Positions 8,581 to 37,812 of a stretch of 37,812 nt of DNA are shown here, in pieces (position 1 is the first letter of the stretch; the number at the start of each line of letters is the position of its first letter). The stretch covers positions 1-37,812 of IMG/VR virus record IMGVR_UViG_2778261419_000004, one strand, 5' to 3'. The position numbers and the translations under genes are program-made. The notes under the pieces were generated by a model. That model worked only from the letters and a program-made list of their open reading frames with translations, did no database searches and was not told where the DNA came from. This stretch comes from a virus. Its lineage: Duplodnaviria; Heunggongvirae; Uroviricota; Caudoviricetes.

Positions 8581-10457
8581 CGCCAAGTGAACTTAGCGAC
8601 CTGCTTTGGGCGCAGGTTGACAGGGTGGCTCCGCACCTGTTGCCAAACGGCAAGAAAGAGGGGCATGAGTGGGTTGCCGGTAACGTCAATGGTGACAAGG
8701 GAAACAGCCTTAAGGTCAACCTTAGCGGCAAGAAAAAATGGGCTGATTTCGCTGAGGGAGACGGCGGTGACATGCTTGATTTGTGGATGGCATGTCGTGG
8801 AATTAACCTGCATCAGGCTATGCAGGAAGCGAAAGCATTTCTCGGTATCAAGGATGACGATCACCATTTCGATGCCAAACGTGAGAAAAAATTCTCCAGA
8901 CCTGATCGCAAGAAAATCGCCCGCTACGTTACCAGAACAGAATCCCATCTTGAGTACCTGCAATCGCGTGGCATATCGCCAGAAGTCGTAAAGCGCTACG
9001 AGGTTGTCAGCGGCAAGGTGTGGAATGGAGAACGAGAACTTGATGCACTGGTGCTTCCGTACAAACGCGATGGTGAGTTGTTGCAGGTCAAGCGAATCAG
9101 CACTGAGCGCCCGGACGGGAAGAAAGTCATTATGGCAGAAGGTGATTGCGAACCTTGTCTGTTCGGATGGCAGGCTCTGGACGCTGGCGTGAGGGCGGTT
9201 GTACTTTGCGAAGGCGAAATTGATTGTATGAGCTATGCGCAATACGGCATCTCGGCGTTATCCGTGCCGTTTGGTGGAGGGAAAGGCGCTAAGCAACAGT
9301 GGATTGAGTTTGAGTACCACAACCTCGACAGGTTTGAGGAAATATTCATCTCGATGGACGTTGATGATGTTGGTCGTGAAGCCGCAAGGGAAATCGCAAG
9401 CCGACTCGGTGAACATCGTTGCCGTCTTGTTACTCTGCCGTACAAAGACATCAACGAATGCCTGATGAACGGTGTTACCGAGGATGAAATCTGGCAGTAC
9501 ATCGGCACGGCATCCTACTTTGATCCTGAAGAACTCTACAGCGCGCGAGAGTTTTACCAGGACACTATCAACGCTTTCTACGGCAAGCAGCAGTATCTGT
9601 TTAATCCACCGTGGGAATCTCTGGCAGATAAATTCCAGTTTCGTGAGGCCGAGTTGACGCTGGTCAATGGTGTGAACGGTCACGGAAAAACGGAGGTTGT
9701 CGGGCATATGGCACTTGAGGCAATGCGTCAGGGTGTGAAGACGTGCATCGCGTCACTTGAGCTGAAGCCTGGTATTCTCCTTAAGCGCCTTACCCGTCAG
9801 GCGACGTGCTGCAAGATGCCGCCAGTGCTGGAAATTGACTCTGCATTTAAATTTTATGACGAAAGACTTTGGGTGTTTGGCCTGACTGGAACGGCGAAAG
9901 CCGACAGGCTGATCGAAATATTCGACTACGCTCGCCGCCGATACGGCATCCAGTTATTCATCATCGACAGCCTGATGAAATGCGGCATAGGTGACGATGA
10001 CTATAACGGGCAGAAAGCATTTGTTGACTCGATTTGTGACTTCAAAAACAAAACAAACTCCCACGTCATTCTCGTTACTCACTCCAGAAAAGGAGACAGC
10101 GAAGAAAAACCAACCGGGAAAATGGACGTAAAAGGCTCTGGAGCGATAACAGACCTGACAGACAACCTTTTCATCATCTGGCGTAACAAGGCTCGCGAGA
10201 GAGCGTTACAGAGAGTTCAGAGTGGTGAAAAAATGTCAGAGAAGGACGAACAGCTACTGGCATCTCCGGCATCTGTTTTGATGCTTGAAAAACAACGTAA
10301 CGGCGAAGGTTGGGAAGGTGGTGTCCCGTTGTTCCTTGACGAGCAATCGCACCAGTTCCTGCAACTTGAATCAGGATCGCCTTATAGCTACATCGCCAAT
10401 ATGCCGAAATCGGAATATGACGAGGCGTGGCGACAGGAAAACGTGACGGAGTATTAA
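8577..10457 (+). CDS. Bifunctional DNA primase-helicase (TOPRIM plus DnaB-like ATPase)
   Basis: 626 aa; TOPRIM-like VLCEGEIDCMSYAQYG and SMDVDDVGREAAREIA; Walker A GVNGHGKTEV and Walker B LFIIDSL in the C-terminal half. Confidence 0.85.
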   Translation: MTPSELSDLLWAQVDRVAPHLLPNGKKEGHEWVAGNVNGDKGNSLKVNLSGKKKWADFAEGDGGDMLDLWMACRGINLHQAMQEAKAFLGIKDDDHHFDAKREKKFSRPDRKKIARYVTRTESHLEYLQSRGISPEVVKRYEVVSGKVWNGERELDALVLPYKRDGELLQVKRISTERPDGKKVIMAEGDCEPCLFGWQALDAGVRAVVLCEGEIDCMSYAQYGISALSVPFGGGKGAKQQWIEFEYHNLDRFEEIFISMDVDDVGREAAREIASRLGEHRCRLVTLPYKDINECLMNGVTEDEIWQYIGTASYFDPEELYSAREFYQDTINAFYGKQQYLFNPPWESLADKFQFREAELTLVNGVNGHGKTEVVGHMALEAMRQGVKTCIASLELKPGILLKRLTRQATCCKMPPVLEIDSAFKFYDERLWVFGLTGTAKADRLIEIFDYARRRYGIQLFIIDSLMKCGIGDDDYNGQKAFVDSICDFKNKTNSHVILVTHSRKGDSEEKPTGKMDVKGSGAITDLTDNLFIIWRNKARERALQRVQSGEKMSEKDEQLLASPASVLMLEKQRNGEGWEGGVPLFLDEQSHQFLQLESGSPYSYIANMPKSEYDEAWRQENVTEY

Positions 10458-10486
10458 ATGACCATCTACATCACTGAGCTTGTAAC

Positions 10487-10515
10487 AGGCCTGCTGGTAA
10501 TCGCAGGCCTTTTTA
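10487..10515 (+). terminator. Rho-independent terminator (tR2-like, before the nin region)
   Basis: AGGCCTGC-TGGTAATC-GCAGGCCT (8-bp stem) followed by TTTTATTT. Confidence 0.7.
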
Positions 10516-10534
10516 TTTGGGGGAGAGGGAAGTC

Positions 10535-11122
10535 ATGAAAAAACTAACCTTTGAAATTCGATCTCCAGCACATCAGCAAAACGCTATTCACGCAGTACAG
10601 CAAATCCTTCCAGACCCAACCAAACCAATCAATCAAATAACTCAGCAGAGACTTAAAGAAGTCCTTCTCTACGATGAGTTAACAGGGAAATTCACATGGA
10701 AAGTAAAGAAATGCCAGAGAATGAATGCTGGGGATATCGCAGGGCATAAGAGTAGCGAAGGCTACTGGGTAATAAAAGTCGATGGAAAACTTTATAAGGC
10801 ACACAGGCTGGCGTGGCTCTATATGAATGGCAGTCTACCAAAAAGTGATATCGACCACATAAATCTCGTTAGGGATGACAATCGTATAGCAAATCTTAGA
10901 TTGGCAACTCGATCTCAAAACATCCAAAACGTAAACAAAAAGGCAAATAACAAATCAGGATATAAAGGCGTTTCATGGGATAAGAAATCAAGAAAATGGA
11001 GGGCGCAAATCGTAATCAACAAGAGGAAAGTTAATCTTGGGTTTTACGATGACCCAAAGGAAGCTCATAAAGTATATGCAAATAAAGCGGATGAATGTTT
11101 CGGCGAATTTGCGAGGTATTAA
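10535..11122 (+). CDS. HNH homing endonuclease with AP2 domain, N-terminally fused to a NinB-like segment
   Basis: First 32 aa MKKLTFEIRSPAHQQNAIHAVQQILPDPTKPI match the lambda NinB N-terminus as recalled; then HNH motif DHINLVRDDNRIANLRLATRSQN and AP2-like YKGVSWDKKSRKWRAQI...GFYDDPKEAHKVY. Track start 10517 is TTG. Confidence 0.8.
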   Translation: MKKLTFEIRSPAHQQNAIHAVQQILPDPTKPINQITQQRLKEVLLYDELTGKFTWKVKKCQRMNAGDIAGHKSSEGYWVIKVDGKLYKAHRLAWLYMNGSLPKSDIDHINLVRDDNRIANLRLATRSQNIQNVNKKANNKSGYKGVSWDKKSRKWRAQIVINKRKVNLGFYDDPKEAHKVYANKADECFGEFARY

Positions 11123-11123
11123 A

Positions 11124-11552
11124 ATGAAATGTGTCAAATATCACCTTACTAATGAATCTATAAGATATAACGCCATTCAGTATCTTAGGACATGCGATTT
11201 AGACATCATTGTCGAGTTTAAGCAGCGCAACCGCAGCTTAGACCAGAATCGAAAGCTTTGGGCTTGCCTTGGTGACGTCTCTCGTCAGGTTGAATGGCAT
11301 GGTCGCTGGCTGGATGCAGAAAGCTGGAAGTGTGTGTTTACCGCAGCATTAAAGCAGCAGGATGTTGTTCCTAACCTTGCCGGGAATGGCTTTGTGGTAA
11401 TAGGCCAGTCAACCAGCAGGATGCGTGTAAGCGAATTTGCGGAGCTATTAGAGCTTATACAGGCATTCGGTACAGAGCGTGGCGTTAAGTGGTCAGACGA
11501 AGCGCGACTGGCTCTGGAGTGGAAAGCGCGATGGGGAGACCGGGCAGCATGA
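11124..11552 (+). CDS. ninB: NinB (Orf-family recombination mediator)
   Basis: 142 aa from the ATG at 11124 (AGGTAT motif upstream); [37 protein letters not shown]...[11 protein letters not shown] matches lambda NinB as recalled. Confidence 0.85.
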
Positions 11553-16911: not shown

Positions 16912-17646
16912 ATGCATCAAACTTTAGCCAACGCAACCTTTCAAGTCATCGCAGGGCAGTCTCTCGGCAGTGGCTTTAGCTTCCTGAGAGATGATTTAGT
17001 TATAACAAATTGGCATGTAATAAAATCATTGGTTGACATAACAACTAGCAGCACTCGCGGTCCAGTAACTTTGCTCACTGAATCTCATCAGAGTTTACAA
17101 GCTCAGATTCAACGCGTTGACATCGCAAACGACATTGCGGTGATGCAACTTTCAGAAGCACTGCCAGCGGGAAGGGTTGTTTTGCAGCCTTCACCTAACT
17201 TCACCCCAACAAGGGGAAAGCGTTTGATTTTTGCAGGCTATCCGCATGGTTTTTCTGATTTGTTAACAAGTGAAGCCATAATTTCAGCCCCAATGGAGGA
17301 CGGCAAGTTTGCTATCGATGGAATGGTAAACGGTGGCAATTCCGGAGGGCCCATTATTGAATTGGAGTCAGGGGATGTTGTTGGTATCGTAACCGAAAGA
17401 AGATACCCAGGAAAAGTTGAGGCTGATGCTATTGCTGAAAGATCCAAAAGACTTTTGGTAGAAATTGGGAACATGGGAGTGAATGTAAGCTTCGGTGGTG
17501 TGGATTTCGCGAGGGTTAACTCACTTTATGCAGAGTCACTGGCTACAATAGTCAAAATTCTGGAGTCTAATGCAAATCCTGGCATAGGTATCGGTTTCCC
17601 TATAAAGCCTATTATTGATGCAATCGCTACGCTCAAAGCTGAATAA
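16912..17646 (+). CDS. Cytoplasmic trypsin-like (chymotrypsin-fold) serine protease
   Basis: 244 aa; catalytic triad context TNWHV (His), NDIAVMQL (Asp), GNSGGPI (Ser); no signal peptide; GGAG 6 nt upstream; AT-rich; own terminator. Confidence 0.8.
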   Translation: MHQTLANATFQVIAGQSLGSGFSFLRDDLVITNWHVIKSLVDITTSSTRGPVTLLTESHQSLQAQIQRVDIANDIAVMQLSEALPAGRVVLQPSPNFTPTRGKRLIFAGYPHGFSDLLTSEAIISAPMEDGKFAIDGMVNGGNSGGPIIELESGDVVGIVTERRYPGKVEADAIAERSKRLLVEIGNMGVNVSFGGVDFARVNSLYAESLATIVKILESNANPGIGIGFPIKPIIDAIATLKAE

Positions 17647-18231: not shown

Positions 18232-18254
18232 AATAACAACTAAGTGAGATGAAT

Positions 18255-18743
18255 ATGGCAGCACCAAAGGGCAACCGATTTTGGGAGGCCCGCAGTAGTC
18301 ATGGGCGAAATCCTAAATTCGAATCGCCTGAGGCGCTGTGGGCTGCTTGTTGTGAATACTTCGAGTGGGTAGAAGCTAACCCGCTATGGGAGATGAAGGC
18401 GTTCTCGTATCAGGGTGAAGTGATACAAGAGCCTATCGCCAAGATGCGAGCGATGACCATTACCGGCCTCACTCTGTTCATTGATGTGACGCTTGAAACA
18501 TGGCGCACATATCGCCTGCGAGAAGATTTATCTGAAGTCGTTACGCGAGCAGAACAGGTCATCTACGACCAGAAATTCTCTGGCGCAGCCGCTGACCTTC
18601 TCAACGCTAACATCATCGCCCGTGATTTGGGCCTCAAAGAGCAGTCGCAAGTTGAAGACGTGACACCTGATAAGGGAGATCGCGATAAGCGGCGCTCTCG
18701 TATCAAGGAGCTATTCAACCGTGGAACTGGACGCGATTCTTGA
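18255..18743 (+). CDS. terS: Terminase small subunit (P22 gp3-like)
   Basis: 162 aa from the second [25 protein letters not shown]...; matches P22 gp3 in size and recalled N-terminus. Confidence 0.75.
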
Positions 18744-20220
18744 TAACTTGAGCGACGAAGAGCAAATCGAATTGCTCGAGCTACTCGAAGAAGAAGAGAA
18801 CTACCGTAACACACACCTGCTATATGAATTTACGCCATACAGCAAACAGCGTGAGTTCATCGACGCCGGACATGACTATCCAGAGCGATGTTTTATGGCT
18901 GGTAACCAGCTTGGTAAGTCATTTACTGGTGCTGCTGAAGTCGCGTTTCACCTTACCGGGCGTTATCCGGGCACAAAAGGCTATCCTGTTGATGGTAAAT
19001 ATGGCGGTGAGTGGAAAGGTAAGCGTTTCTATGAGCCTGTTGTCTTCTGGATTGGCGGCGAGACAAACGAGACTGTAACCAAAACGACTCAACGCATCCT
19101 GTGCGGTCGTATCGAAGAGAATGATGAGCCTGGCTACGGTTCCATACCGAAAGAAGACATCATTAGCTGGAAGAAGTCTCCTTTCTTTCCGAACCTTGTT
19201 GATCACCTTCTGGTTAAGCATCACACGGCTGATGGCGTTGAAGATGGCATTTCAATCTGCTACTTCAAACCATACTCGCAAGGCCGTGCTCGCTGGCAGG
19301 GTGACACAATCCACGGCGTGTGGTTTGACGAAGAGCCACCATACAGCATTTATGGCGAAGGTCTTACCCGTACCAACAAATACGGGCAATTCTCAATTCT
19401 GACGTTTACCCCTCTGATGGGGATGTCTGACGTTGTTACCAAGTTCCTGAAGAATCCCAGCAAGTCGCAGAAAGTGGTCAACATGACCATCTACGACGCT
19501 GAGCACTACACCGACGAGCAGAAAGAGCAAATCATCGCATCCTATCCCGAGCATGAGAGAGAGGCGCGTGCTCGCGGTATTCCTACGATGGGTAGTGGTC
19601 GAATCTTCCAGATACCGGAAGAGACGATTAAGTGTCAGCCGTTCGAGTGTCCTGATCACTTCTACGTAATTGGCGGGATGGATTTCGGATGGGATCACCC
19701 ACAGGCGCAGGTTCAGCTTTGGTGGGATAAGGACGCAGACACAATCTACGTTTCACGCGTGTGGAAGGCGAAAGAAAAAACAGCTGTTCAGGCATGGGGA
19801 GCTGTTAAATCATGGGCGCATAAAGTGCCAACCGCATGGCCTCATGACGGAAACCAGCATGAGAAGGGCGGCGGTGAGCAGCTCAAAGGGCAGTACGCAG
19901 ACGCTGGATTTATGATGTTGCAGGAGCATGCGACATGGCCTGATGGAGGTAATGCTGTTGAGCCTGGAATCACTGAATTGCGAGACATGATGCTCGACGG
20001 TCGCTTCAAAGTGTTCAACACCTGTGAGCCATTCTTTGAGGAGTTCCGCCTCTATCACCGCGATGAAAACGGGAAAATCGTCAAGCTTAACGACGACGTG
20101 CTATCCGCCGTTCGCTATGCATACATGATGCGCCGCTTCGCAAAAATGATGCGCGACATCAAAAAACCCAAAGAGAAAAAGATACCAGCCCCAATCAGGC
20201 CCATCGCACGGAGAACTTAA
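18721..20220 (+). CDS. terL: Terminase large subunit (P22 gp2-like)
   Basis: 499 aa, same as P22 gp2; GTG start [25 protein letters not shown] overlaps the terS end. Confidence 0.9.
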
Positions 20221-26805: not shown

Positions 26806-27351
26806 ATGTTGAGTGAAAACGCAAAAGATATTCCTGGATATGAAGGTTTATATGCCGTAACAGAGGATGGTCGAGTATATTCTCACTCACGTGTTGTTAA
26901 GGCTGCGCATGGCAGCACGCAACTCAGAAAGGGGCGGTGGCTAAAACAACACGAGAATAATAAAGGTTATCTATATTTGCCACTTAGTGTTGATGGAGTT
27001 AAAGTAAAATGGCTTGTGCATAGGCTTGTCGCTCTTGCTTTCGTCCCCAATCCAGAAGGCAAGCCGTTCATAAATCACATAGATAACAACCGAAAAAATA
27101 ATAATGCTTCTAATTTAGAGTGGTGTACTCAAAAGGAAAATATGAAGCATTGCTCATCTCAAGGCAGGGTGAAGTTTCCGGCTTTAAAAGGAGAAAATAA
27201 TCCAATTTCAAAGCTCTCATATGAGCAAGTAATAGAAATAAAGAAATCAAAGGGAGTTAATCAAAGAGAGCTTGCTAAAAAATACTGTGTCAGTCAGACG
27301 GTGATTCACAATATCCAGTCTGGTAAATCGTGGAGGCATGTTAATGGCTGA
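26806..27351 (+). CDS. HNH homing endonuclease (NUMOD4 plus HNH plus C-terminal HTH)
   Basis: 181 aa; NUMOD4-like [19 protein letters not shown]; [27 protein letters not shown]; C-terminal HTH-like [25 protein letters not shown]; AT-rich. Confidence 0.8.
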
Positions 27352-32992: not shown

Positions 32993-33328
32993 TTATTGAT
33001 TCTTTTTGCACGGAAATGTTTTTCCTACTGCTAGGGCGGTTAGTATAACTGCATTCTCATTTCTTGATTCTGGGTTTTTGTTTAGATATTTCTCAACGAT
33101 ATCGGTGTATTGATACATGTCAACGCCATCAGGAGGACATAGAGAACCAATTAGTATCAATGAGTCAGTTACTCCGCGCAAATATCCAGTAATGTAAAGC
33201 GATGAAAAATCATCACCCTTTTTACCTTGTTGAATGTTGTAAAGAAGGTCATTACCCGTTTGAAGCTCGCGCAGCTCAGCACTGGAAGAAGAGACAACTG
33301 CTAACAGGAACAGTGATAGAAATCTCAT
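32993..33328 (-). CDS. Secreted protein with signal peptide (unknown function), coupled to mnt
   Basis: 111 aa; N-terminal MRFLSLFLLAVVSSSSA; start overlaps the mnt stop (ATGA); AT-rich. Confidence 0.65.
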   Translation of the reverse strand: MRFLSLFLLAVVSSSSAELRELQTGNDLLYNIQQGKKGDDFSSLYITGYLRGVTDSLILIGSLCPPDGVDMYQYTDIVEKYLNKNPESRNENAVILTALAVGKTFPCKKNQ

Positions 33329-33579
33329 TTCAAATCCTTTTCATAAATCTTTTTAAGTGTCTCAAACACTATAGACTTGAACTGCTCAGCCTGCTGATCA
33401 GCCAAGCGTTCAGCTTCGTCGCGATATCCTGTAATCGGTGATGGTTTTGATAGTGCATCCTGAACGATTTGTAATAACTCAGAGTTCATTGACCTTCCGT
33501 TAGCCTCGGCTCTTAATTTCAATTTTTCTCTTACTTCCAAAGGCATACGGAAGTTAAAGTGCGGATCATCTCTAGCCAT
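33325..33579 (-). CDS. mnt: Mnt repressor (ribbon-helix-helix)
   Basis: 84 aa MARDDPHFNFRMPLEVREKLKLRAEANGRSMNSELLQIVQDALSKPSP... near-identical to P22 Mnt as recalled. Confidence 0.85.
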   Translation of the reverse strand: MARDDPHFNFRMPLEVREKLKLRAEANGRSMNSELLQIVQDALSKPSPITGYRDEAERLADQQAEQFKSIVFETLKKIYEKDLK

Positions 33580-33601: not shown

Positions 33602-33630
33602 TTGACATGATAGAAGCACTCTACTATATT
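33602..33630 (+). promoter_or_regulatory. Pant promoter with Arc operator
   Basis: -35 TTGACA (33602-33607), 17-nt spacer, -10 TATATT; Arc operator-like ATGATAGAAGCACTCTACTAT at 33607-33627. Confidence 0.65.
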
Positions 33631-33636
33631 CTCAAT

Positions 33637-33653
33637 AGGTCCACCGTGGACCT
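33637..33653. promoter_or_regulatory. Mnt operator
   Basis: 17-bp palindrome AGGTCCAC-C-GTGGACCT between mnt and arc. Confidence 0.7.
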
Positions 33654-33669
33654 ATATTGTGAGGTGAAC

Positions 33670-33831
33670 ATGAAAGGAATGAGCAAAATGCCGCAGTTCA
33701 ATTTGCGGTGGCCTAAAGAAGTATTGGATTTGGTACGCAAGGTGGCGGAAGAGAATGGTCGGTCTGTTAACTCTGAGATTTATCAGAGAGTAATGGAAAG
33801 CTTTAAGAAGGAAGGGCGCATTGGCGCGTAA
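33670..33831 (+). CDS. arc: Arc repressor (ribbon-helix-helix)
   Basis: 53 aa [53 protein letters not shown] matches P22 Arc as recalled; GAGGTG upstream. Track ORF starts earlier at 33607. Confidence 0.85.
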
Positions 33832-33899: not shown

Positions 33900-34802
33900 A
33901 TGAATAGTATAGCAATTTTAGAAGCAGTGAACACCTCTTACGTACCATTCAACGGTCAGCAAATTATCACCGCCATGGCTGCCGGAGTTGCATACGTTGC
34001 GATGAAGCCAATCGTTGAAAACCTTGGAATGAGTTGGGGTACTCAGCAACAAAAACTTATGAAACAACTAGATAAGTTCAACTGTATTCATATGAATATG
34101 GTTGCCGCTGATGGGAAGCTTCGTAAGCTACTCTGCCTTCCTTTGAAGAAGTTAAATGGATGGCTGTTCAGCATCAACCCTGAGAAAGTTCGAGCTGACA
34201 TCCGCGATAAACTGATTCAGTACCAGGAAGAATGCTTTACTGTACTGCATGACTACTGGACAAAGGGAAAGGCAGAAAATGCACGTAAGAAAACATCTGT
34301 TGATGACAGGACTCCGCTTCGTGATGCTGTAAATATGCTAGTCAGCAAAAAGCATCTAATGTACCCAGAAGCTTATGCAATGATTCATCAGCGTTTCAAT
34401 GTGGAAAGTATTGAAGAGCTTGATGCATCTCAGATACCGCAAGCCGTAGAGTACATCCACAGGGTAGTGCTTGAAGGTGAGTTCATCGGCAAACAAGAGA
34501 AGAAAACCAACGAGCTTTCTGCAAAAGAAGCAAACAGCCTTGTATGGCTATGGGATTATGCCAACCGCTCACAGGCATTATTCCGCGAACTGTATCCGGC
34601 GCTGAAACAAATTCAATCGAACTATTCCGGCAGATGTCATGACTGCGGTTATGAGTTCTCCCGTATTATCGATATAGCGAGAGACGTTTTAATCAATCAC
34701 TCACGAGATGTTGATATCAATGAGCCAGACGGACCAACGAATCTTTCCGCATGGATGAGACTTAAGAATAAAGAATTACCTCCTTCAGTACATAACTACT
34801 GA
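33900..34802 (+). CDS. ant: Antirepressor Ant
   Basis: 300 aa from the ATG at 33900 ([26 protein letters not shown]...), matching P22 Ant size and recalled N-terminus; track extension from 33834 is a TTG start. Confidence 0.85.
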
Positions 34803-34821
34803 CAGATAACCAACGCAACGA

Positions 34822-34844
34822 CCCAGCTTCGGCTGGGTTTTTTT
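34822..34844 (+). terminator. Rho-independent terminator after ant
   Basis: CCCAGC-TTCG-GCTGGG hairpin followed by TTTTTTT. Confidence 0.8.
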
Positions 34845-34912
34845 ATGCCCAAAATTCACCGTAGCTACGCTGCGGTGATTCCTTGTATCTGGAGCAAATT
34901 AAATGACAGACA

Positions 34913-35401
34913 TTATCTAAAACAAGCAAACTCGCCATGATATTTTTCCCTGAATGCAATAGACATTAATTCGGCCAGCTCAATATCATCGGTATACCCA
35001 AGGCAAATAGACTTACCTTTTAGTTTGAACATAACTTTATATGTGTTTTTCCCTTTAAGAAGATGAACTCCTTTTATACCTGTATTGGATGATGAAACGC
35101 TGTTGGTTTTATTCTGACCTCTGGTTACTTCTCTTAGGTTTGAAATTCTATTGTCATTTTTAACCCCGTTAATATGGTCAATTAACCCTTTAGGCCAGCA
35201 TCCTTTCATATAAAACCAAGCAAGTCGGTGGCAAAGATACGATTTTCCATTAATCCGTATTGATAAGTAGTCGGCCTGTGAGTTCGTCTTAAATCCAGCA
35301 ACCTTTCCGATACTGGAGCTACCAGAAGCTATCTTCCAAGTGAAGACGCCTGTTTCTGGGTTGTAGTTGAGTGAAGAGGTTAATTCTTTATGAGTAATCA
35401 T
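34913..35401 (-). CDS. HNH homing endonuclease with AP2 domain (paralog of 10535..11122)
   Basis: 162 aa from the second ATG; HNH LIDHINGVKNDNRISNLREVTRGQN; AP2-like GIKGVHLLKGKNTYKVMFKLKGKSICLGYTDD; opposite strand to flanking genes; AT-rich. Confidence 0.75.
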   Translation of the reverse strand: MITHKELTSSLNYNPETGVFTWKIASGSSSIGKVAGFKTNSQADYLSIRINGKSYLCHRLAWFYMKGCWPKGLIDHINGVKNDNRISNLREVTRGQNKTNSVSSSNTGIKGVHLLKGKNTYKVMFKLKGKSICLGYTDDIELAELMSIAFREKYHGEFACFR

Positions 35402-35427
35402 ATTCATTCCTTAAATAGAGATTCACT

Positions 35428-37812
35428 ATGTCAAATATTGTGCCAAATGTTATAATTTCAATGCCAAGTCAACTATTTACGTTAGCCAGAAAATTCCAGG
35501 CCGCAAGCAATGGCAAGATATTCATTGGTAAGATAGATTCCGATCCTACGCTCCCACAGAATCAAGTGCAGGTTTATGTGGAGAACGAAGACGGATCTCA
35601 CGTTCCTGTTTCGCAACCAATCATTATTAACGCTGCTGGATATCCGGTATATAACGGACAGATTGCCAAATTCGTTACCGTGCAAGGCCATTCTATGGCT
35701 GTTTATGATGCGTATGGTTCTCAGCAGTTCTATTTTCCGAATGTGCTGAAGTATGATCCATCATCAAAGTTTCCCTACCTTGATATAAACTTATTAAATC
35801 TTTGGGATAAATACAGTAAACTTCCTGGATATAATTTAATTGGATATTTCAAACCAGGAGTAACAATAAATAACCCATGCGATGTTGTATTGCATCTTGG
35901 TAGCGCAACCGTTTATAGATATACGGCAACCATACCGCACACCATAACCAGCGATGAAGAGCCATCAGGATTTTGGCTGCCAGTAAAAGAAGGCATTGAA
36001 GCAGCATCTTCTGCTGATATGACGAGGCTGATATCAGATGGGCATTACATCATTGAGAAAAATGCTGATTTCCTAATTCCAGGGCTAATACCTGGTTCAT
36101 ATAACAGATCTGATAGAAGTTTTTCTGATGGTTATGAGTTCCGATATGGAGGAATAAAGCATCAAAAACAACCATTTGGTGTTTTTGAAAATGCATGTGT
36201 TTTAACGGCTGTGGCTGCGACTCGTGATGCTGAGCATTTTACCGGCATTCTAGGCGCCGAAACCGGTCAATCGCTGGCCCAATACGGCAGTACAGATACT
36301 GCTGCTACATATTTTGAAAATACTGCATTACCGCCATTGTACACGCTAACTGGAGCTATTTTTAGCACAACAGGAGCATCTAGTATTACCATTGATCCGG
36401 CTAAGGTCAGGATAAATATGACCGCGGTGGTTATAGGATCTTCGAAAACATGGTTTGGTCTTATTAGGGGGTTTAATTCGTCAAGCATCACCGTTGATGG
36501 ATGGTATGAAAAAACGTCAGGAACTCAGAGCACTCCATCAGGAACACTTTATATCTCTCCTGTATATCGTGTATGGGGGAATAATACTGTTGTAACAGTT
36601 CCTGAAGATGCAGCTGCAACGTCTGCAGTTGGTATGGAGGTGATGCTTAACCTATATAAAGACGGAACAGGTTCTGATAGTCAGGTTTATAAAGCTATCA
36701 ACAACAATGCATTTAATCCTGATGAGATAGTTGATAGCGCATACCAGGCTGTAGGTAAGTTTGGCAAAGCACATGATGTTTGGCCTGGTTCAACATATTC
36801 ATATCGCTCATGGGGTGCTACATCATATGGGTTCTTCTCAGACCACGATCAGTCCGGTATCAAAATTCTAACCCCCAACGCTGCGGCATTTGTGCTGGCG
36901 TCACAGGTTGATGGTGTTGGAGAGGAAACCAACGTACTTATCATTGACCCTGCCGGTAGCATCACACAAACAAACCGAAAGGGGGTGAACGAAATCGCCG
37001 CACAGTTTGGTCCCAATGGAGCAGCTGGGGTCGTCATACGGCAACAAGCCTCAGGAGGTGCGAACGCATCAGACGCTGTTATGTTCGTAGGAAAGTCATC
37101 AGCAACGGACAGGAGCATAAACTGCGCTGGCACAGTTAATTCTTCCGGAGCTGATTACGCTGAATATTTCTACAAATCAGAAGGCTGTGGAGACATTAAG
37201 CCAGGCGATATATGCGGAATTGACGCGGACGGGAATATCACTGACAGATATGACAGTGCAGTTAGCTTCATGGTAAAAAGTACCAACCCATGTCTTGTTG
37301 GCGGTGACACATGGCTACAAAGCGAGCGCCCAGAATACCCATCGCAAGAATGGGCAGAATGGGAAAAGAAACTCAGAAAACAAAAACCCGTGAAACCTGA
37401 ATATTCTATGGTCTCGGCTATGATTCGGTCAGGGATGTCACAGGAAGAGGCAGAGTCAGTTTATGCTGAATACTTCCGAAGCTATGAAGCCGAACTTGTA
37501 TCGTGGAATTCAGAGCAGGAGTGGGCCAGAAATAATGAGCCAGACATGGAGAGTGCTGAATACAAACAATGGATAGCATCCTCAGAAGAGGAGAGGAAGA
37601 AAGTTGACCGCTTAGCCTTTTGTGGTCGCGTTCCTGTTAATGTCATCGGCGGAAATCCAGGCGAGTATCTTATACCACAGAGAGATTCTAATGGTGGCAT
37701 AAGCGGGGTGTACATATCAGAACCATCATTTATAGATTATCGTAAAGCCGTAGGGAGGGTAGTATCAGTAAATGAATCAAAGGAAGTAACCATCACTGTA
37801 CTTGTACATTAA
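35428..37812 (+). CDS. Tailspike (P22 gp9-like head-binding N-terminus, divergent receptor-binding body, C-terminal chaperone-like domain)
   Basis: 794 aa ending at the window edge with TAA. N-terminal ~110 aa (GKIDSDPTLPQNQVQVYVENEDGSHV...VTVQGHSMAVYDAYGSQ) resembles the P22 tailspike head-binding domain; the rest is unrelated to the P22 body as recalled. Confidence 0.8.
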   Translation: MSNIVPNVIISMPSQLFTLARKFQAASNGKIFIGKIDSDPTLPQNQVQVYVENEDGSHVPVSQPIIINAAGYPVYNGQIAKFVTVQGHSMAVYDAYGSQQFYFPNVLKYDPSSKFPYLDINLLNLWDKYSKLPGYNLIGYFKPGVTINNPCDVVLHLGSATVYRYTATIPHTITSDEEPSGFWLPVKEGIEAASSADMTRLISDGHYIIEKNADFLIPGLIPGSYNRSDRSFSDGYEFRYGGIKHQKQPFGVFENACVLTAVAATRDAEHFTGILGAETGQSLAQYGSTDTAATYFENTALPPLYTLTGAIFSTTGASSITIDPAKVRINMTAVVIGSSKTWFGLIRGFNSSSITVDGWYEKTSGTQSTPSGTLYISPVYRVWGNNTVVTVPEDAAATSAVGMEVMLNLYKDGTGSDSQVYKAINNNAFNPDEIVDSAYQAVGKFGKAHDVWPGSTYSYRSWGATSYGFFSDHDQSGIKILTPNAAAFVLASQVDGVGEETNVLIIDPAGSITQTNRKGVNEIAAQFGPNGAAGVVIRQQASGGANASDAVMFVGKSSATDRSINCAGTVNSSGADYAEYFYKSEGCGDIKPGDICGIDADGNITDRYDSAVSFMVKSTNPCLVGGDTWLQSERPEYPSQEWAEWEKKLRKQKPVKPEYSMVSAMIRSGMSQEEAESVYAEYFRSYEAELVSWNSEQEWARNNEPDMESAEYKQWIASSEEERKKVDRLAFCGRVPVNVIGGNPGEYLIPQRDSNGGISGVYISEPSFIDYRKAVGRVVSVNESKEVTITVLVH

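What the first reader, a model, noticed from the sequence alone, without database searches (positions are those of the whole stretch)
34845..35900. Second AP2-HNH endonuclease, antisense between ant and the tailspike, next to an AT-rich tailspike 5' region
A paralog of the 10535 endonuclease (same HNH and AP2 motif order) is encoded on the opposite strand between the ant terminator and the tailspike start. The adjacent tailspike head-binding region is AT-rich and more diverged from P22 than I would expect for that conserved domain. With three HNH genes in one ~38 kb genome, each next to a composition or sequence breakpoint, homing endonucleases appear to be active agents of mosaicism here.
Basis: partly seen in the sequence, partly recalled or inferred. 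Interest (0 to 1): 0.4.

Follow-up and report, generated by a model that had tools for sequence, protein, structure and literature searches.

The report
Mobile HNH endonuclease cassette in tailspike gene
A small selfish endonuclease gene has inserted 13 bases into the tailspike gene of this P22-like phage and brought its own replacement for the first 47 codons; comparison with related prophages shows the 653-bp unit has recently spread between many different tailspike genes, making it a clear but conventional homing-endonuclease element.

Summary
Window 34913-35401/35407 (-) encodes an intact I-HmuI-like HNH plus AP2 endonuclease. It is 39% identical to the 10535 gene. A third HNH, of NUMOD4 type, lies at 26806-27351.

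The gene is not simply intergenic. The resident tailspike RBS, ATG and first 13 nt survive at 34891-34915. The antisense HNH follows, then a new tailspike start at 35428.

Against an insert-free prophage with the same tailspike (TW10573), tailspike nt 1-141 differ at 59 sites (42%) and nt 142-2385 at 5 sites (0.2%). The unit is therefore 34916-35568: HNH plus a spare tailspike 5' end.

Only 7 of 5426 complete E. coli genomes carry it. Across 17 carriers, diversity is 0.0055 in the cassette against 0.10 in the adjacent 198 nt, over 14 receptor-binding types.

A diverged copy sits at the same nucleotide in a Proteus-type phage, behind that lineage's own 13-nt relic. A second HNH (Kapi1 type, 42% identical) occupies the same site.

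Best reading: a free-standing homing endonuclease that spreads without an intron and cuts near tailspike nt 13/14. Cleavage is untested. The ninB-adjacent paralog has the same design. This is a new member of a known kind.

The parts
34820..34846 (+). ant terminator (GC-rich stem-loop plus T run). Conserved in insert-free relatives.
   Evidence: Terminator scan. Identical in CUS-3, HK620, Kapi1 and TW10573. Annotated tANT in HK620.
34856..34878 (+). Second conserved stem-loop upstream of the tailspike RBS. It is part of the left homology arm. On the minus strand it is followed by ATTTTG and could terminate the HNH transcript (inferred).
34891..34915 (+). Relic of the resident tailspike translation start: GGAG, an 8-nt spacer, then ATGACAGACATTA (the ATG at 34903 plus the first 13 nt of the ORF). 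It now reads MTDII-stop (34903-34920).
   Evidence: Identical to the true tailspike start of CUS-3, HK620 and TW10573. Kept in all 17 carriers, even where everything upstream differs.
34916..35568 (.). The mobile cassette (653 bp): antisense HNH-AP2 gene, 20-nt spacer and spare tailspike 5' end. It replaces nt 14-141 (128 nt) of an uninterrupted tailspike gene.
   Evidence: Boundaries come from the comparison with insert-free TW10573. It is 99.4-99.7% identical in 7 E. coli genomes. Diversity is 0.0055 against 0.103 in the next 198 nt. GC is 0.37-0.39.
34913..35401 (-). HNH-AP2 endonuclease gene, 162 aa from M3 (164 aa if started at 35407). Its TAA stop (34913-34915) overlaps the ATTA of the tailspike relic.
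   Evidence: Pfam HNH_3 E=4e-15. phrog_99 E=7.5e-60. Profile hits to I-HmuI and AP2 structures. AlphaFold2 model pLDDT 94.3 with Foldseek hits to I-HmuI and AP2. Invariant H58, D75, H76, N88, N100. The ORF is intact in 17 of 18 copies.
35434..35461 (-). Candidate sigma-70 promoter for the HNH gene (TTGAAA, 16 nt, AATATT), lying antisense within spare tailspike codons 3-12. Weak evidence.
   Evidence: Consensus scan, 9 of 12 matches; 5 sites found against 3.4 expected. The Kapi1-type cassette has TTGGTT, 17 nt, TATAAT at the equivalent place. Not tested.
35428..35568 (+). Spare (replacement) tailspike 5' end, codons 1-47: MSNIVPNVIISMPSQLFTLARKFQAASNGKIFIGKIDSDPTLPQNQV. It travels with the HNH.
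   Evidence: 59 of 141 nt differ from TW10573 (21 synonymous and 17 non-synonymous codon changes), against 5 of 2244 afterwards; Fisher p=3e-72. It is invariant among carriers. It is closest to Proteus P22-like phages: 81-85% aa (Brookers and MS2 LVA 85%, BPM-V3 81%) and 69-73% nt identity. It is 84% identical to the copy in L050.
35428..37812 (+). Tailspike gene (794 aa). The head-binding domain is aa 1-112. From nt 142 onward the gene is 99.8% identical to the uninterrupted TW10573 tailspike.
   Evidence: Pfam Head_binding E=8e-64.
10535..11122 (+). Paralogous AP2-HNH cassette in ninB. The original ninB ATG and first 32 codons (10535-10630) are fused in frame to the HNH-AP2 (10631-11119).
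   Evidence: Pfam HNH_3 E=1e-16, AP2 E=1e-6, and NinB positions 2-31 at the N-terminus. Sequence read directly. Compared with the insert-free prophage L014.
11124..11552 (+). ninB restarted from a spare, unrelated-looking 5' end (about the first 34 codons, [34 protein letters not shown]). It is then identical to insert-free ninB.
   Evidence: Insert-free loci are 577 bp shorter.
26806..27351 (+). Third HNH gene (NUMOD4 + HNH_3 + an HTH-like tail) between gp10 and the tail needle gene. It belongs to a different subfamily.
   Evidence: Present in many E. coli prophages. Its flanks were not analysed.

Best explanation
This is a free-standing HNH homing-endonuclease cassette. The enzyme has an I-HmuI-like catalytic core and a C-terminal AP2 DNA-binding domain. 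Its target is the extreme 5' end of the tailspike gene of P22-like phages.

Proposed mechanism:
1. The enzyme nicks or cuts a cassette-free tailspike gene at or near nt 13/14 of the ORF. This happens during co-infection, or when a phage meets a resident prophage.
2. The break is repaired from the cassette-bearing genome.
3. The left arm of homology is the ant-terminator/RBS region up to the 13-nt relic. The right arm starts at the highly conserved stretch from nt 142 (QVYVENEDG).
4. Everything between the arms is copied as one block: the HNH gene plus a diverged 141-nt replacement for the tailspike 5' end.
5. The spare 5' end restores an intact tailspike. Because it is about 42% diverged, it neither recreates the target site nor offers homology that could delete the HNH.

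Shown here: the anatomy, exact boundaries, presence/absence polymorphism, recent spread across unrelated backgrounds, the same insertion point in two tailspike lineages and for two HNH lineages, the domain architecture and conserved catalytic residues.

Inferred: enzymatic activity, position of the cut, the repair route and the HNH promoter.
For: (a) Insertion scar. Insert-free phages start the tailspike at GGAGCAAATTAAATGACAGACATTAC. The window keeps this up to ATTA, followed by the antisense HNH and a new start.

(b) Sharp boundary. 59 of 141 mismatches are followed by 5 of 2244 against TW10573, p=3e-72.

(c) Rarity. The cassette is in 7 of 5426 E. coli genomes, all 99.4-99.7% identical.

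(d) Spread. In 17 independent carriers diversity is 0.0055 in the cassette and 0.103 in the adjacent 198 nt. There are 14 receptor-binding-domain types and 11 upstream contexts, and polymorphism resumes 6 nt past the cassette.

(e) Second tailspike lineage. L050, a Brookers-like Proteus-type phage with GC 0.39, carries a diverged copy: HNH 92% nt, spare 5' end 84%. It sits at the same nucleotide but behind the Proteus-type relic ATGTCAGATATTA, with a Proteus-type tailspike after about nt 150. The left junction therefore tracks the recipient and allows only about 4 nt of microhomology. That is expected if the junction is the break site.

(f) Second HNH lineage. The Kapi1-type HNH (42% aa identity) occupies the same site with its own recoded 5' end, in 15 of 5426 genomes.

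(g) Enzyme. HNH_3, conserved D75/H76/N88/N100, fold match to I-HmuI and AP2, ORF intact in 17 of 18 copies.

(h) Not an intron. The gene is antisense to its host gene and there are no Rfam intron matches.

(i) Paralog. The ninB paralog has the same layout of relic, HNH and spare 5' end.
Against: - No cleavage or homing experiment exists for this enzyme or for any close relative; the nearest relatives outside the cluster are at most 50% identical.
- Spread by ordinary homologous recombination between prophages would produce much of the same population pattern.
- Part of the carrier set was retrieved by identity to the HNH protein, which biases cassette diversity downward. The 7 genomes found by blastn show the same 2-4 SNPs per 653 nt.
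- The promoter call is weak.
- Very short apparent co-conversion tracts are unusual for classical T4 Seg-type homing.
- A crude test for relic plus spare-5'-end architecture around 21 distant family members in IMG/VR found nothing.
Confidence: 0.75

Rival explanations
1. Passive passenger. The HNH gene and its diverged tailspike patch came from one old illegitimate recombination with a distant P22-like phage. They now move only by general homologous recombination in the conserved head-binding region, and the endonuclease plays no part.
For: P22-like tailspike genes recombine often at the head-binding/receptor-binding junction, and the flanks are highly polymorphic (diversity 0.10). Flank polymorphism resumes within 6-30 nt of the cassette, so no long co-conversion tract is visible. 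One copy (1916D6) has a premature stop, so activity is dispensable at least briefly.
Against: - The same insertion nucleotide is used in two tailspike lineages, each with its own resident relic and only about 4 nt of shared junction sequence.
- An unrelated-sequence HNH (42% aa identity) sits at the same nucleotide.
- The ORF is intact with conserved catalytic residues in 17 of 18 copies.
- The cassette is about 19-fold less diverse than adjacent DNA in 14 backgrounds. That requires many recent transfers with crossovers tightly clustered at its edges.
Confidence: 0.14
2. Domesticated weapon. The prophage keeps the endonuclease mainly to damage superinfecting or co-resident P22-like phages that lack the cassette, by cutting their tailspike gene. 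This is exclusion or competition, and spread of the gene is a by-product.
For: The gene lies in the immI/moron-rich region next to mnt, arc and ant, and has its own candidate antisense promoter independent of late transcription. PADLOC contains a 'homing endonuclease' model that it matches weakly, E=7e-7. Marker exclusion is a documented activity of phage HNH homing endonucleases (PMC12724721, abstract).
Against: It has no partner genes and no match to any defined defence system beyond the generic model. Its low frequency (7 of 5426 genomes) and one decayed copy fit a selfish element better than a selected defence. This reading does not exclude homing.
Confidence: 0.08
3. Housekeeping HNH. The protein is a packaging or terminase-associated nuclease (as HK97 gp74 is for cos phages), or a replication or recombination nuclease that the phage needs.
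For: HNH proteins do serve terminases in some phages (general knowledge).
Against: Most related P22-like phages and prophages lack the gene, including one with an identical tailspike. It lies about 15 kb from the gp3-type small terminase and large terminase at 18249-20220. It has the AP2 homing-endonuclease architecture.
Confidence: 0.02

Closest known systems
I-HmuI (Bacillus phage SPO1 intron-encoded HNH nicking homing endonuclease, PDB 1u3e)
   Same: HNH_3-type catalytic core. The family profile hits 1u3e at E=2e-7. It is the top Foldseek match of the model (probability 1.0). The D-H...N...N catalytic residues are conserved.
   Different: The window gene is not intron-encoded: it is antisense to its host gene and has no intron RNA. 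Its C-terminal DNA-binding module is an AP2 domain rather than I-HmuI's own C-terminal modules. Identity is only about 20%.
HNH-AP2 homing endonuclease family of phages, cyanobacteria and protists (Magnani et al. 2004, as cited in PMC10448857; Barth et al. 2023 name a divergent ICP1 branch IPA-HNH)
   Same: N-terminal HNH followed by a C-terminal AP2 domain. Free-standing genes next to or within essential phage genes (PMC10448857).
   Different: This copy has a canonical HNH_3 domain, which the ICP1 IPA-HNH branch lacks. It is in a temperate P22-like phage. Its AP2 domain is too diverged for Pfam. No member with this target has been described in the literature searched.
T4-type free-standing homing endonucleases (SegB, SegF, SegG, MobE): intronless homing and localized marker exclusion
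   Same: A free-standing endonuclease gene is inherited together with a block of flanking donor sequence that replaces the recipient's version. The site shows presence/absence polymorphism, and different endonuclease genes can replace one another at a locus (PMC2988022, PMC2790892 and PMC2330249, listed; details from general knowledge).
   Different: Seg enzymes are GIY-YIG proteins. T4 homing-endonuclease genes usually sit between genes. Here the insertion is inside the ORF, leaves a 13-nt relic with the original ATG, and carries a fixed spare 5' segment. Apparent co-conversion beyond the cassette is only a few nucleotides.
Kapi1_066 HNH endonuclease of Escherichia phage vB_EcoP_Kapi1 (MT813197)
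   Same: Same insertion nucleotide. Same antisense orientation. The TAA stop is formed at the same relic ATTA. It also has a recoded tailspike 5' end.
   Different: Only 42% aa identity. The DNA cannot be aligned. Its recoded tailspike segment is shorter (nt 4-81). It is in 15 of 5426 E. coli genomes.
Phage epsilon34 gene 31 (in-frame fusion of an EaE N-terminus to an HNH homing endonuclease; Villafane et al. 2008, PMC2629481)
   Same: In a P22-like phage, an HNH endonuclease gene is fused in frame to the N-terminal remnant of the gene it interrupted. The ninB paralog here does the same.
   Different: A different locus and a different HNH lineage; the paper reports it as related to Lactobacillus phage enzymes. 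No spare 5' end was described.

Membership tests
HNH_3 / I-HmuI-like HNH endonucleases | HNH_3 domain scoring above the Pfam gathering threshold | tested here: met
   55.5 bits against a cut-off of 24.8, E=4e-15, aa 57-99.
HNH_3 / I-HmuI-like HNH endonucleases | Catalytic residues present: the D-H general-base pair and the Asn metal and structural residues | tested here: met
   H58, D75, H76, N88, R90 and N100 are invariant in a 72-sequence alignment. They align with the VVDH...NLR...N motif of I-HmuI.
HNH_3 / I-HmuI-like HNH endonucleases | Fold similarity to a solved member | tested here: met
   AlphaFold2 model pLDDT 94.3. Top Foldseek PDB hit is 1u3e, I-HmuI, probability 1.0; the E-value of 2e-3 is modest.
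HNH-AP2 homing endonuclease family | C-terminal AP2 DNA-binding domain (three-stranded sheet packed on a helix) | tested here: met
   Pfam AP2 is not detected on this protein alone. The family profile hits AP2/ERF structures at E=1.2e-8. The model has strands 112-115, 120-127 and 130-137 and helix 140-158, and superposes on the TEM1 and AtERF1 AP2 domains at 1.3-1.4 A.
Homing endonuclease gene (functional class) | Presence/absence polymorphism at one defined site among otherwise homologous genomes | tested here: met
   Insert-free alleles in CUS-3, HK620 and TW10573; carriers in 7 of 5426 genomes; identical junction in all.
Homing endonuclease gene (functional class) | History of the element incongruent with that of its host locus (horizontal spread) | tested here: met
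   Diversity 0.0055 against 0.103 in the adjacent DNA. 14 receptor-binding-domain types. A copy in a Proteus-type lineage carries the resident relic.
Homing endonuclease gene (functional class) | The element-bearing allele lacks the recognition site that is present in empty alleles | tested here: inconclusive
   The only sequence that differs between the window and TW10573 is tailspike nt 14-141, so any locus-specific target must overlap it. The site itself is unknown.
Homing endonuclease gene (functional class) | Site-specific cleavage of the empty allele and catalysis-dependent super-Mendelian inheritance | not testable with these tools
   Needs an enzyme assay and phage crosses.
Intron- or intein-encoded endonuclease | Embedded in a self-splicing RNA or an in-frame intein of the host gene | tested here: not met
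   The gene is antisense to the tailspike. There is no Rfam group I or II intron match at E<=1 in 34600-35800 or 10400-11400. The host gene restarts from its own ATG.
Terminase-associated HNH (HK97 gp74 type) | Adjacent to terminase genes, in a cos-packaging phage, and conserved in relatives | tested here: not met
   The gp3-type small terminase is at 18249-18743 and the large terminase at 18721-20220, about 15 kb away. The gene is absent from most relatives.

The most novel reading that the evidence does not exclude
The spare 5' gene segment is not an accidental co-conversion tract. It is an integral, selected part of the element, giving a splicing-free way for HNH-AP2 endonuclease genes to invade the coding sequence of essential genes. 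The element cuts a few codons into the ORF, leaves the old start as a relic, and supplies a diverged, cleavage-immune replacement N-terminus that moves with it between very different lineages (E. coli-type and Proteus-type tailspikes; ninB). If this is general, such cassettes would be a recurrent source of chimeric N-termini in phage proteins, including the tailspike head-binding domain.
Probability: 0.3. Interest if true: 0.6.

Novelty: new member of a known kind. Interest (0 to 1): 0.42.

Why it matters
It gives an unusually clean natural data set for homing in temperate phages. The boundaries are exact and an insert-free twin exists. At least 17 recent transfers into different tailspike genes can be counted. 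Two endonuclease lineages compete for one nucleotide position, and the same element occurs in two host-range groups.

It yields a specific, testable prediction of the cut site, at about nt 13/14 of the tailspike ORF.

It explains an otherwise puzzling chimeric head-binding domain, whose first 47 residues are Proteus-type and whose remainder is E. coli-type.

It warns annotators of three errors: the short 'HNH, partial' or NinB-HNH fusion calls, the relic start codons, and the assumption that the HNH is intergenic.

It does not change the general understanding of homing endonucleases.

Tried and rejected
- **Misleading first alignment.** The first MAFFT alignment of the junction scattered the insert-free tailspike 5' end across the HNH region. 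Translating the genes showed that the resident ATG lies upstream of the HNH.
- **Pfam AP2.** It was negative on this protein even at E<=10. The question was settled with a family profile and a structure model instead.
- **First structure job.** It was rerun without that row.
- **Donor lineage.** GTDB species representatives hold nothing closer than 48%. The protein database shows a gap from 99% to at most 50% identity. Only the IMG/VR contig L050 gave a diverged copy. Proteus phages Brookers, BPM-V3 and MS2 LVA have the nearest tailspike N-termini but no HNH.
- **Donor of the spare ninB 5' end.** tblastn of the phage collection gave one weak hit, so there is no conclusion.
- **Generality of the relic plus spare-5'-end design.** Among 21 distant HNH loci from IMG/VR, I compared the in-frame upstream extension with the N-terminus of the downstream ORF. 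Nothing was significant (best z=2.5). The test is crude and cannot see 13-nt relics.
- **Intron or intein reading.** Rejected.
- **Defence-system reading.** PADLOC gave only a generic 'homing endonuclease' model.
- **Literature.** Six full-text searches found no description of an HNH at the tailspike 5' end of P22-like phages, and nothing on the Kapi1 HNH.
- **Promoter scan.** Only a 9 of 12 match, and the number of sites is not above the shuffled expectation. I keep it as a weak inference.


Full report
**What is at the coordinates.** The window is a P22-like (Lederbergvirus-type) genome. The region around the finding holds these features:
- mnt at 33325-33579 (-) and arc at 33607-33831 (+).
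- ant ending at 34802, with Pfam P22_AR_N and P22_AR_C.
- A 164-aa minus-strand ORF at 34913-35407.
- A 794-aa tailspike at 35428-37812, with Pfam Head_binding on aa 1-112.

The minus-strand ORF matches Pfam HNH_3 at E=4e-15 and phrog_99, 'HNH endonuclease', at E=7.5e-60. Its probable start is the second ATG at 35401, which has AAGGA 6 nt upstream and matches the 162-aa PGAP annotation in related prophages.

The ORF is 39% identical over its whole length to the ORF at 10517/10535-11122 (E=2e-35). A third HNH gene, with NUMOD4 + HNH_3, lies at 26806-27351 between gp10 and the tail needle gene. GC drops to 0.35-0.40 across 34900-35900, against 0.466 for the window.

**Is it an AP2-HNH?** Pfam does not see AP2 in this copy even at E<=10. 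Other evidence settles the question:
- Many relatives carry PF00847 together with PF13392.
- A 73-sequence family profile hits plant AP2/ERF structures (7wq5, E=1.2e-8, profile positions 108-162) and the homing endonuclease I-HmuI (1u3e, E=2e-7, positions 32-116).
- An AlphaFold2 model (pLDDT 94.3) has three strands and a long helix at residues 112-158.
- That model's best Foldseek hit is I-HmuI. Its C-terminus superposes on the TEM1 and AtERF1 AP2 domains at 1.3-1.4 A.
- The residues H58, D75, H76, N88 and N100 (162-aa numbering) are invariant in the family.

In insert-free relatives (CUS-3, HK620, E. coli TW10573) the tailspike starts at the ATG of GGAGCAAATTAAATGACAGACATTAC, giving MTDIT.... 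The window still has that RBS, that ATG (34903) and the next 10 nt. After ...ACATTA the sequence runs into the 3' end of the antisense HNH gene. The HNH's TAA stop is the complement of the TTA in ATTA.

The tailspike then restarts at 35428 with MSNIVPNVIISMPSQLFT.... So the HNH sits inside the original tailspike ORF, 13 nt from its start, and a replacement 5' end follows it.

**Boundaries.** Prophage TW10573 has the same 2385-nt tailspike without the HNH. Between the two genes, nt 1-141 differ at 59 positions (42%; 21 synonymous and 17 non-synonymous codon changes). Nt 142-2385 differ at 5 positions (0.2%). Fisher's test gives p=3e-72. Upstream, the two are essentially identical up to 34915.

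The inserted unit is therefore window 34916-35568 (653 bp). It comprises the HNH, a 20-nt spacer and 47 spare tailspike codons. It replaces 128 nt of an uninterrupted gene.

Over aa 1-47 the window is 51% identical to P22, against 81% for TW10573. Over aa 48-113 both are 71% identical to P22.

**Population evidence for mobility.**
- Flank-like sequence occurs in 1543 of 5426 complete E. coli genomes.
- The cassette occurs in only 7 of them, each with 2-4 differences in 653 nt.
- The exact HNH protein is also on at least 24 NCBI draft contigs and 8 IMG/VR contigs.
- In 17 independent carriers, nucleotide diversity is 0.0055 in the cassette and 0.103 in the next 198 nt of the head-binding region.
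- Those carriers have 14 different receptor-binding domains and 11 different upstream contexts. The upstream contexts include ant variants, a P63C gene and a lytic-transglycosylase gene directly upstream.
- Polymorphism among carriers resumes 6 nt after the cassette.
- All carriers keep the relic GGAGCAAATTAAATGACAGACATTA, even where nothing else upstream is shared.
- The HNH ORF is intact in 17 of 18 copies. Strain 1916D6 has a premature stop at codon 143.

One caveat applies. The draft and IMG/VR carriers were retrieved through HNH identity, which biases cassette diversity downward. The 7 genomes found by blastn give the same picture.

**The same site in another lineage, and another HNH at the same site.** The spare 47 residues are closest to the tailspike N-termini of Proteus P22-like phages. 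Identity is 85% aa to Brookers and MS2 LVA and 81% to BPM-V3 (69-73% nt). E. coli, Salmonella and Shigella types give 64-66% aa and 58% nt. Those Proteus phages have no HNH.

IMG/VR contig UViG_2563367181_000001 (L050, GC 0.39) is a Brookers-like phage that carries a diverged copy of the cassette. Its HNH is 92% identical at the nucleotide level, and its spare 5' end is 84% identical to the window's but only 70% to Brookers. There the relic is the Proteus-type start, GGAGAAAGCAATGTCAGATATTA. The tailspike beyond about nt 150 is Proteus-type.

So the HNH and its 141-nt spare segment travel together. They have entered two tailspike lineages, about 70% identical to each other, at the same nucleotide. 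Each insertion retained the recipient's own first 13 nt. The junction allows only about 4 nt (ATTA) of shared sequence.

Separately, phage Kapi1 and 15 of 5426 E. coli genomes carry a different HNH (42% aa identity, DNA not alignable). It has the same orientation, uses the same ATTA for its stop codon, and has its own recoded tailspike 5' end at nt 4-81. The two recoded segments share derived bases at nt 33, 39-42, 48, 51, 55 and 57 relative to empty alleles.

Prophage GF43 has no HNH but carries the Kapi1-type sequence from about nt 30 to 81 behind a normal start. It could be an HNH-less derivative or an ancestral allele.

**Mechanism proposed.** The simplest account is intronless homing by a free-standing endonuclease.
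1. The enzyme recognises the empty tailspike 5' end and nicks or cuts near nt 13/14.
2. The left end keeps the recipient's sequence up to the break.
3. The right end is resected to the first strongly conserved block, from nt 142 (QVYVENEDG).
4. Repair copies the HNH and its spare 5' end.

The spare segment keeps the tailspike functional. Being about 42% diverged, it neither rebuilds the site nor provides a repeat that could excise the HNH. Since the window and TW10573 differ only in nt 14-141, any locus-specific target must overlap that stretch or the junction. I-HmuI-type enzymes are nickases (general knowledge), so the initiating lesion may be a nick.

A weak sigma-70-like match lies antisense within spare codons 3-12 (TTGAAA, 16 nt, AATATT, 35461-35434). 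A comparable TTGGTT, 17 nt, TATAAT occurs in Kapi1. Together they suggest the spare segment also carries the HNH promoter. This is inference only.

No intron RNA is present. A terminase-associated role is excluded by position and by absence from relatives.

**The paralog.** The 10535 gene has the same design.
- The original ninB ATG and 32 codons (MKKLTFEIRSPAHQQNAIHAVQQILPDPTKPI) are identical to an insert-free prophage. They are fused in frame to the HNH-AP2.
- After the stop at 11120-11122, a new ninB begins at 11124.
- Its first 34 or so codons are almost unrecognisable, and the rest is identical to insert-free ninB.
- Empty sites are 577 bp shorter, and both states occur among E. coli prophages.
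- A similar N-terminal-remnant/HNH fusion was noted in phage epsilon34 gene 31 (PMC2629481).

**Comparison with what is known.**
- HNH-AP2 homing endonucleases are an established family (cited in PMC10448857).
- Homing-endonuclease genes next to or within essential phage genes, and as boundaries of exchanged DNA, have been described for ICP1 and other phages (PMC10448857).
- Intronless homing with replacement of flanking recipient sequence is classical for T4 Seg and Mob enzymes (papers listed).
- Marker exclusion by I-HmuI-like HNH enzymes has been shown in Skunavirus (PMC12724721).

I found no description of a tailspike-5' endonuclease in P22-like phages. I therefore file this as a new member of a known kind. 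It has one noteworthy detail: a fixed spare 5' gene segment accompanies the endonuclease across lineages.

The role as an agent of mosaicism is shown only for the short patches the cassettes themselves carry. Cleavage activity, the target site and the HNH promoter remain untested.

Noticed in passing
window 10535-11552: The other AP2-HNH interrupts ninB after codon 32 and is fused in frame to that remnant. A new ninB start with a completely diverged first 34 or so codons follows at 11124. Empty sites in E. coli prophages are 577 bp shorter. PGAP annotates the ninB remnant as 'HNH endonuclease, partial'.
   Followed up: yes
window 26806-27351: Third HNH (NUMOD4 + HNH_3 + an HTH-like C-terminus) between gp10 and the Sf6-type tail needle gene. 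It overlaps the needle gene's start by 14 nt. It is common in E. coli prophages. I did not check whether it too sits at a sequence breakpoint.
   Followed up: partly
L017 (E. coli GF43) 1481-1640; L016 (MLI104K2): An insert-free tailspike allele with a normal HK620-like start but the Kapi1-type recoded sequence at about nt 30-81. It could be an endonuclease-less, possibly cleavage-resistant allele or the ancestral background. L016 is an IS1-truncated remnant of the same allele.
   Followed up: partly
L008 (E. coli 1916D6), position equivalent to window ~34981: One carrier has a premature stop (E143*) that removes the AP2 helix of the HNH. This looks like a decaying copy, as expected late in a homing cycle.
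   Followed up: yes
window 35420-35430; L050 and L001 equivalents: The 9 nt before and including the new tailspike ATG (TTCACTATG) are identical to nt 49-57 of the resident tailspike (codons F-T-M). L050 has TTTACTATG and Kapi1 has TTTATTATG. This may be chance, or a trace of how the spare start arose. Unexplained.
   Followed up: no
L007 (E. coli APEC E19035) 2601-2780; P22 L032 800-1010: Some empty sites carry an extra 78-bp (E19035) or roughly 110-bp (P22) insert between the ant terminator and the tailspike RBS. The insert has a hairpin and a duplicated AAAATTCACCGTAGC motif, so this spacer is itself polymorphic.
   Followed up: no
window 32993-33328 (-): An ORF with a Rap1a domain (type VI secretion immunity protein; Pfam E=1e-14) lies in the immI/moron region upstream of mnt. 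This is an unusual cargo for a P22-like phage.
   Followed up: no
window 16912-17646 (+): A 244-aa ORF with a trypsin-like serine peptidase domain (Trypsin_2, E=1.7e-17) lies between the lysis region and the small terminase gene.
   Followed up: no
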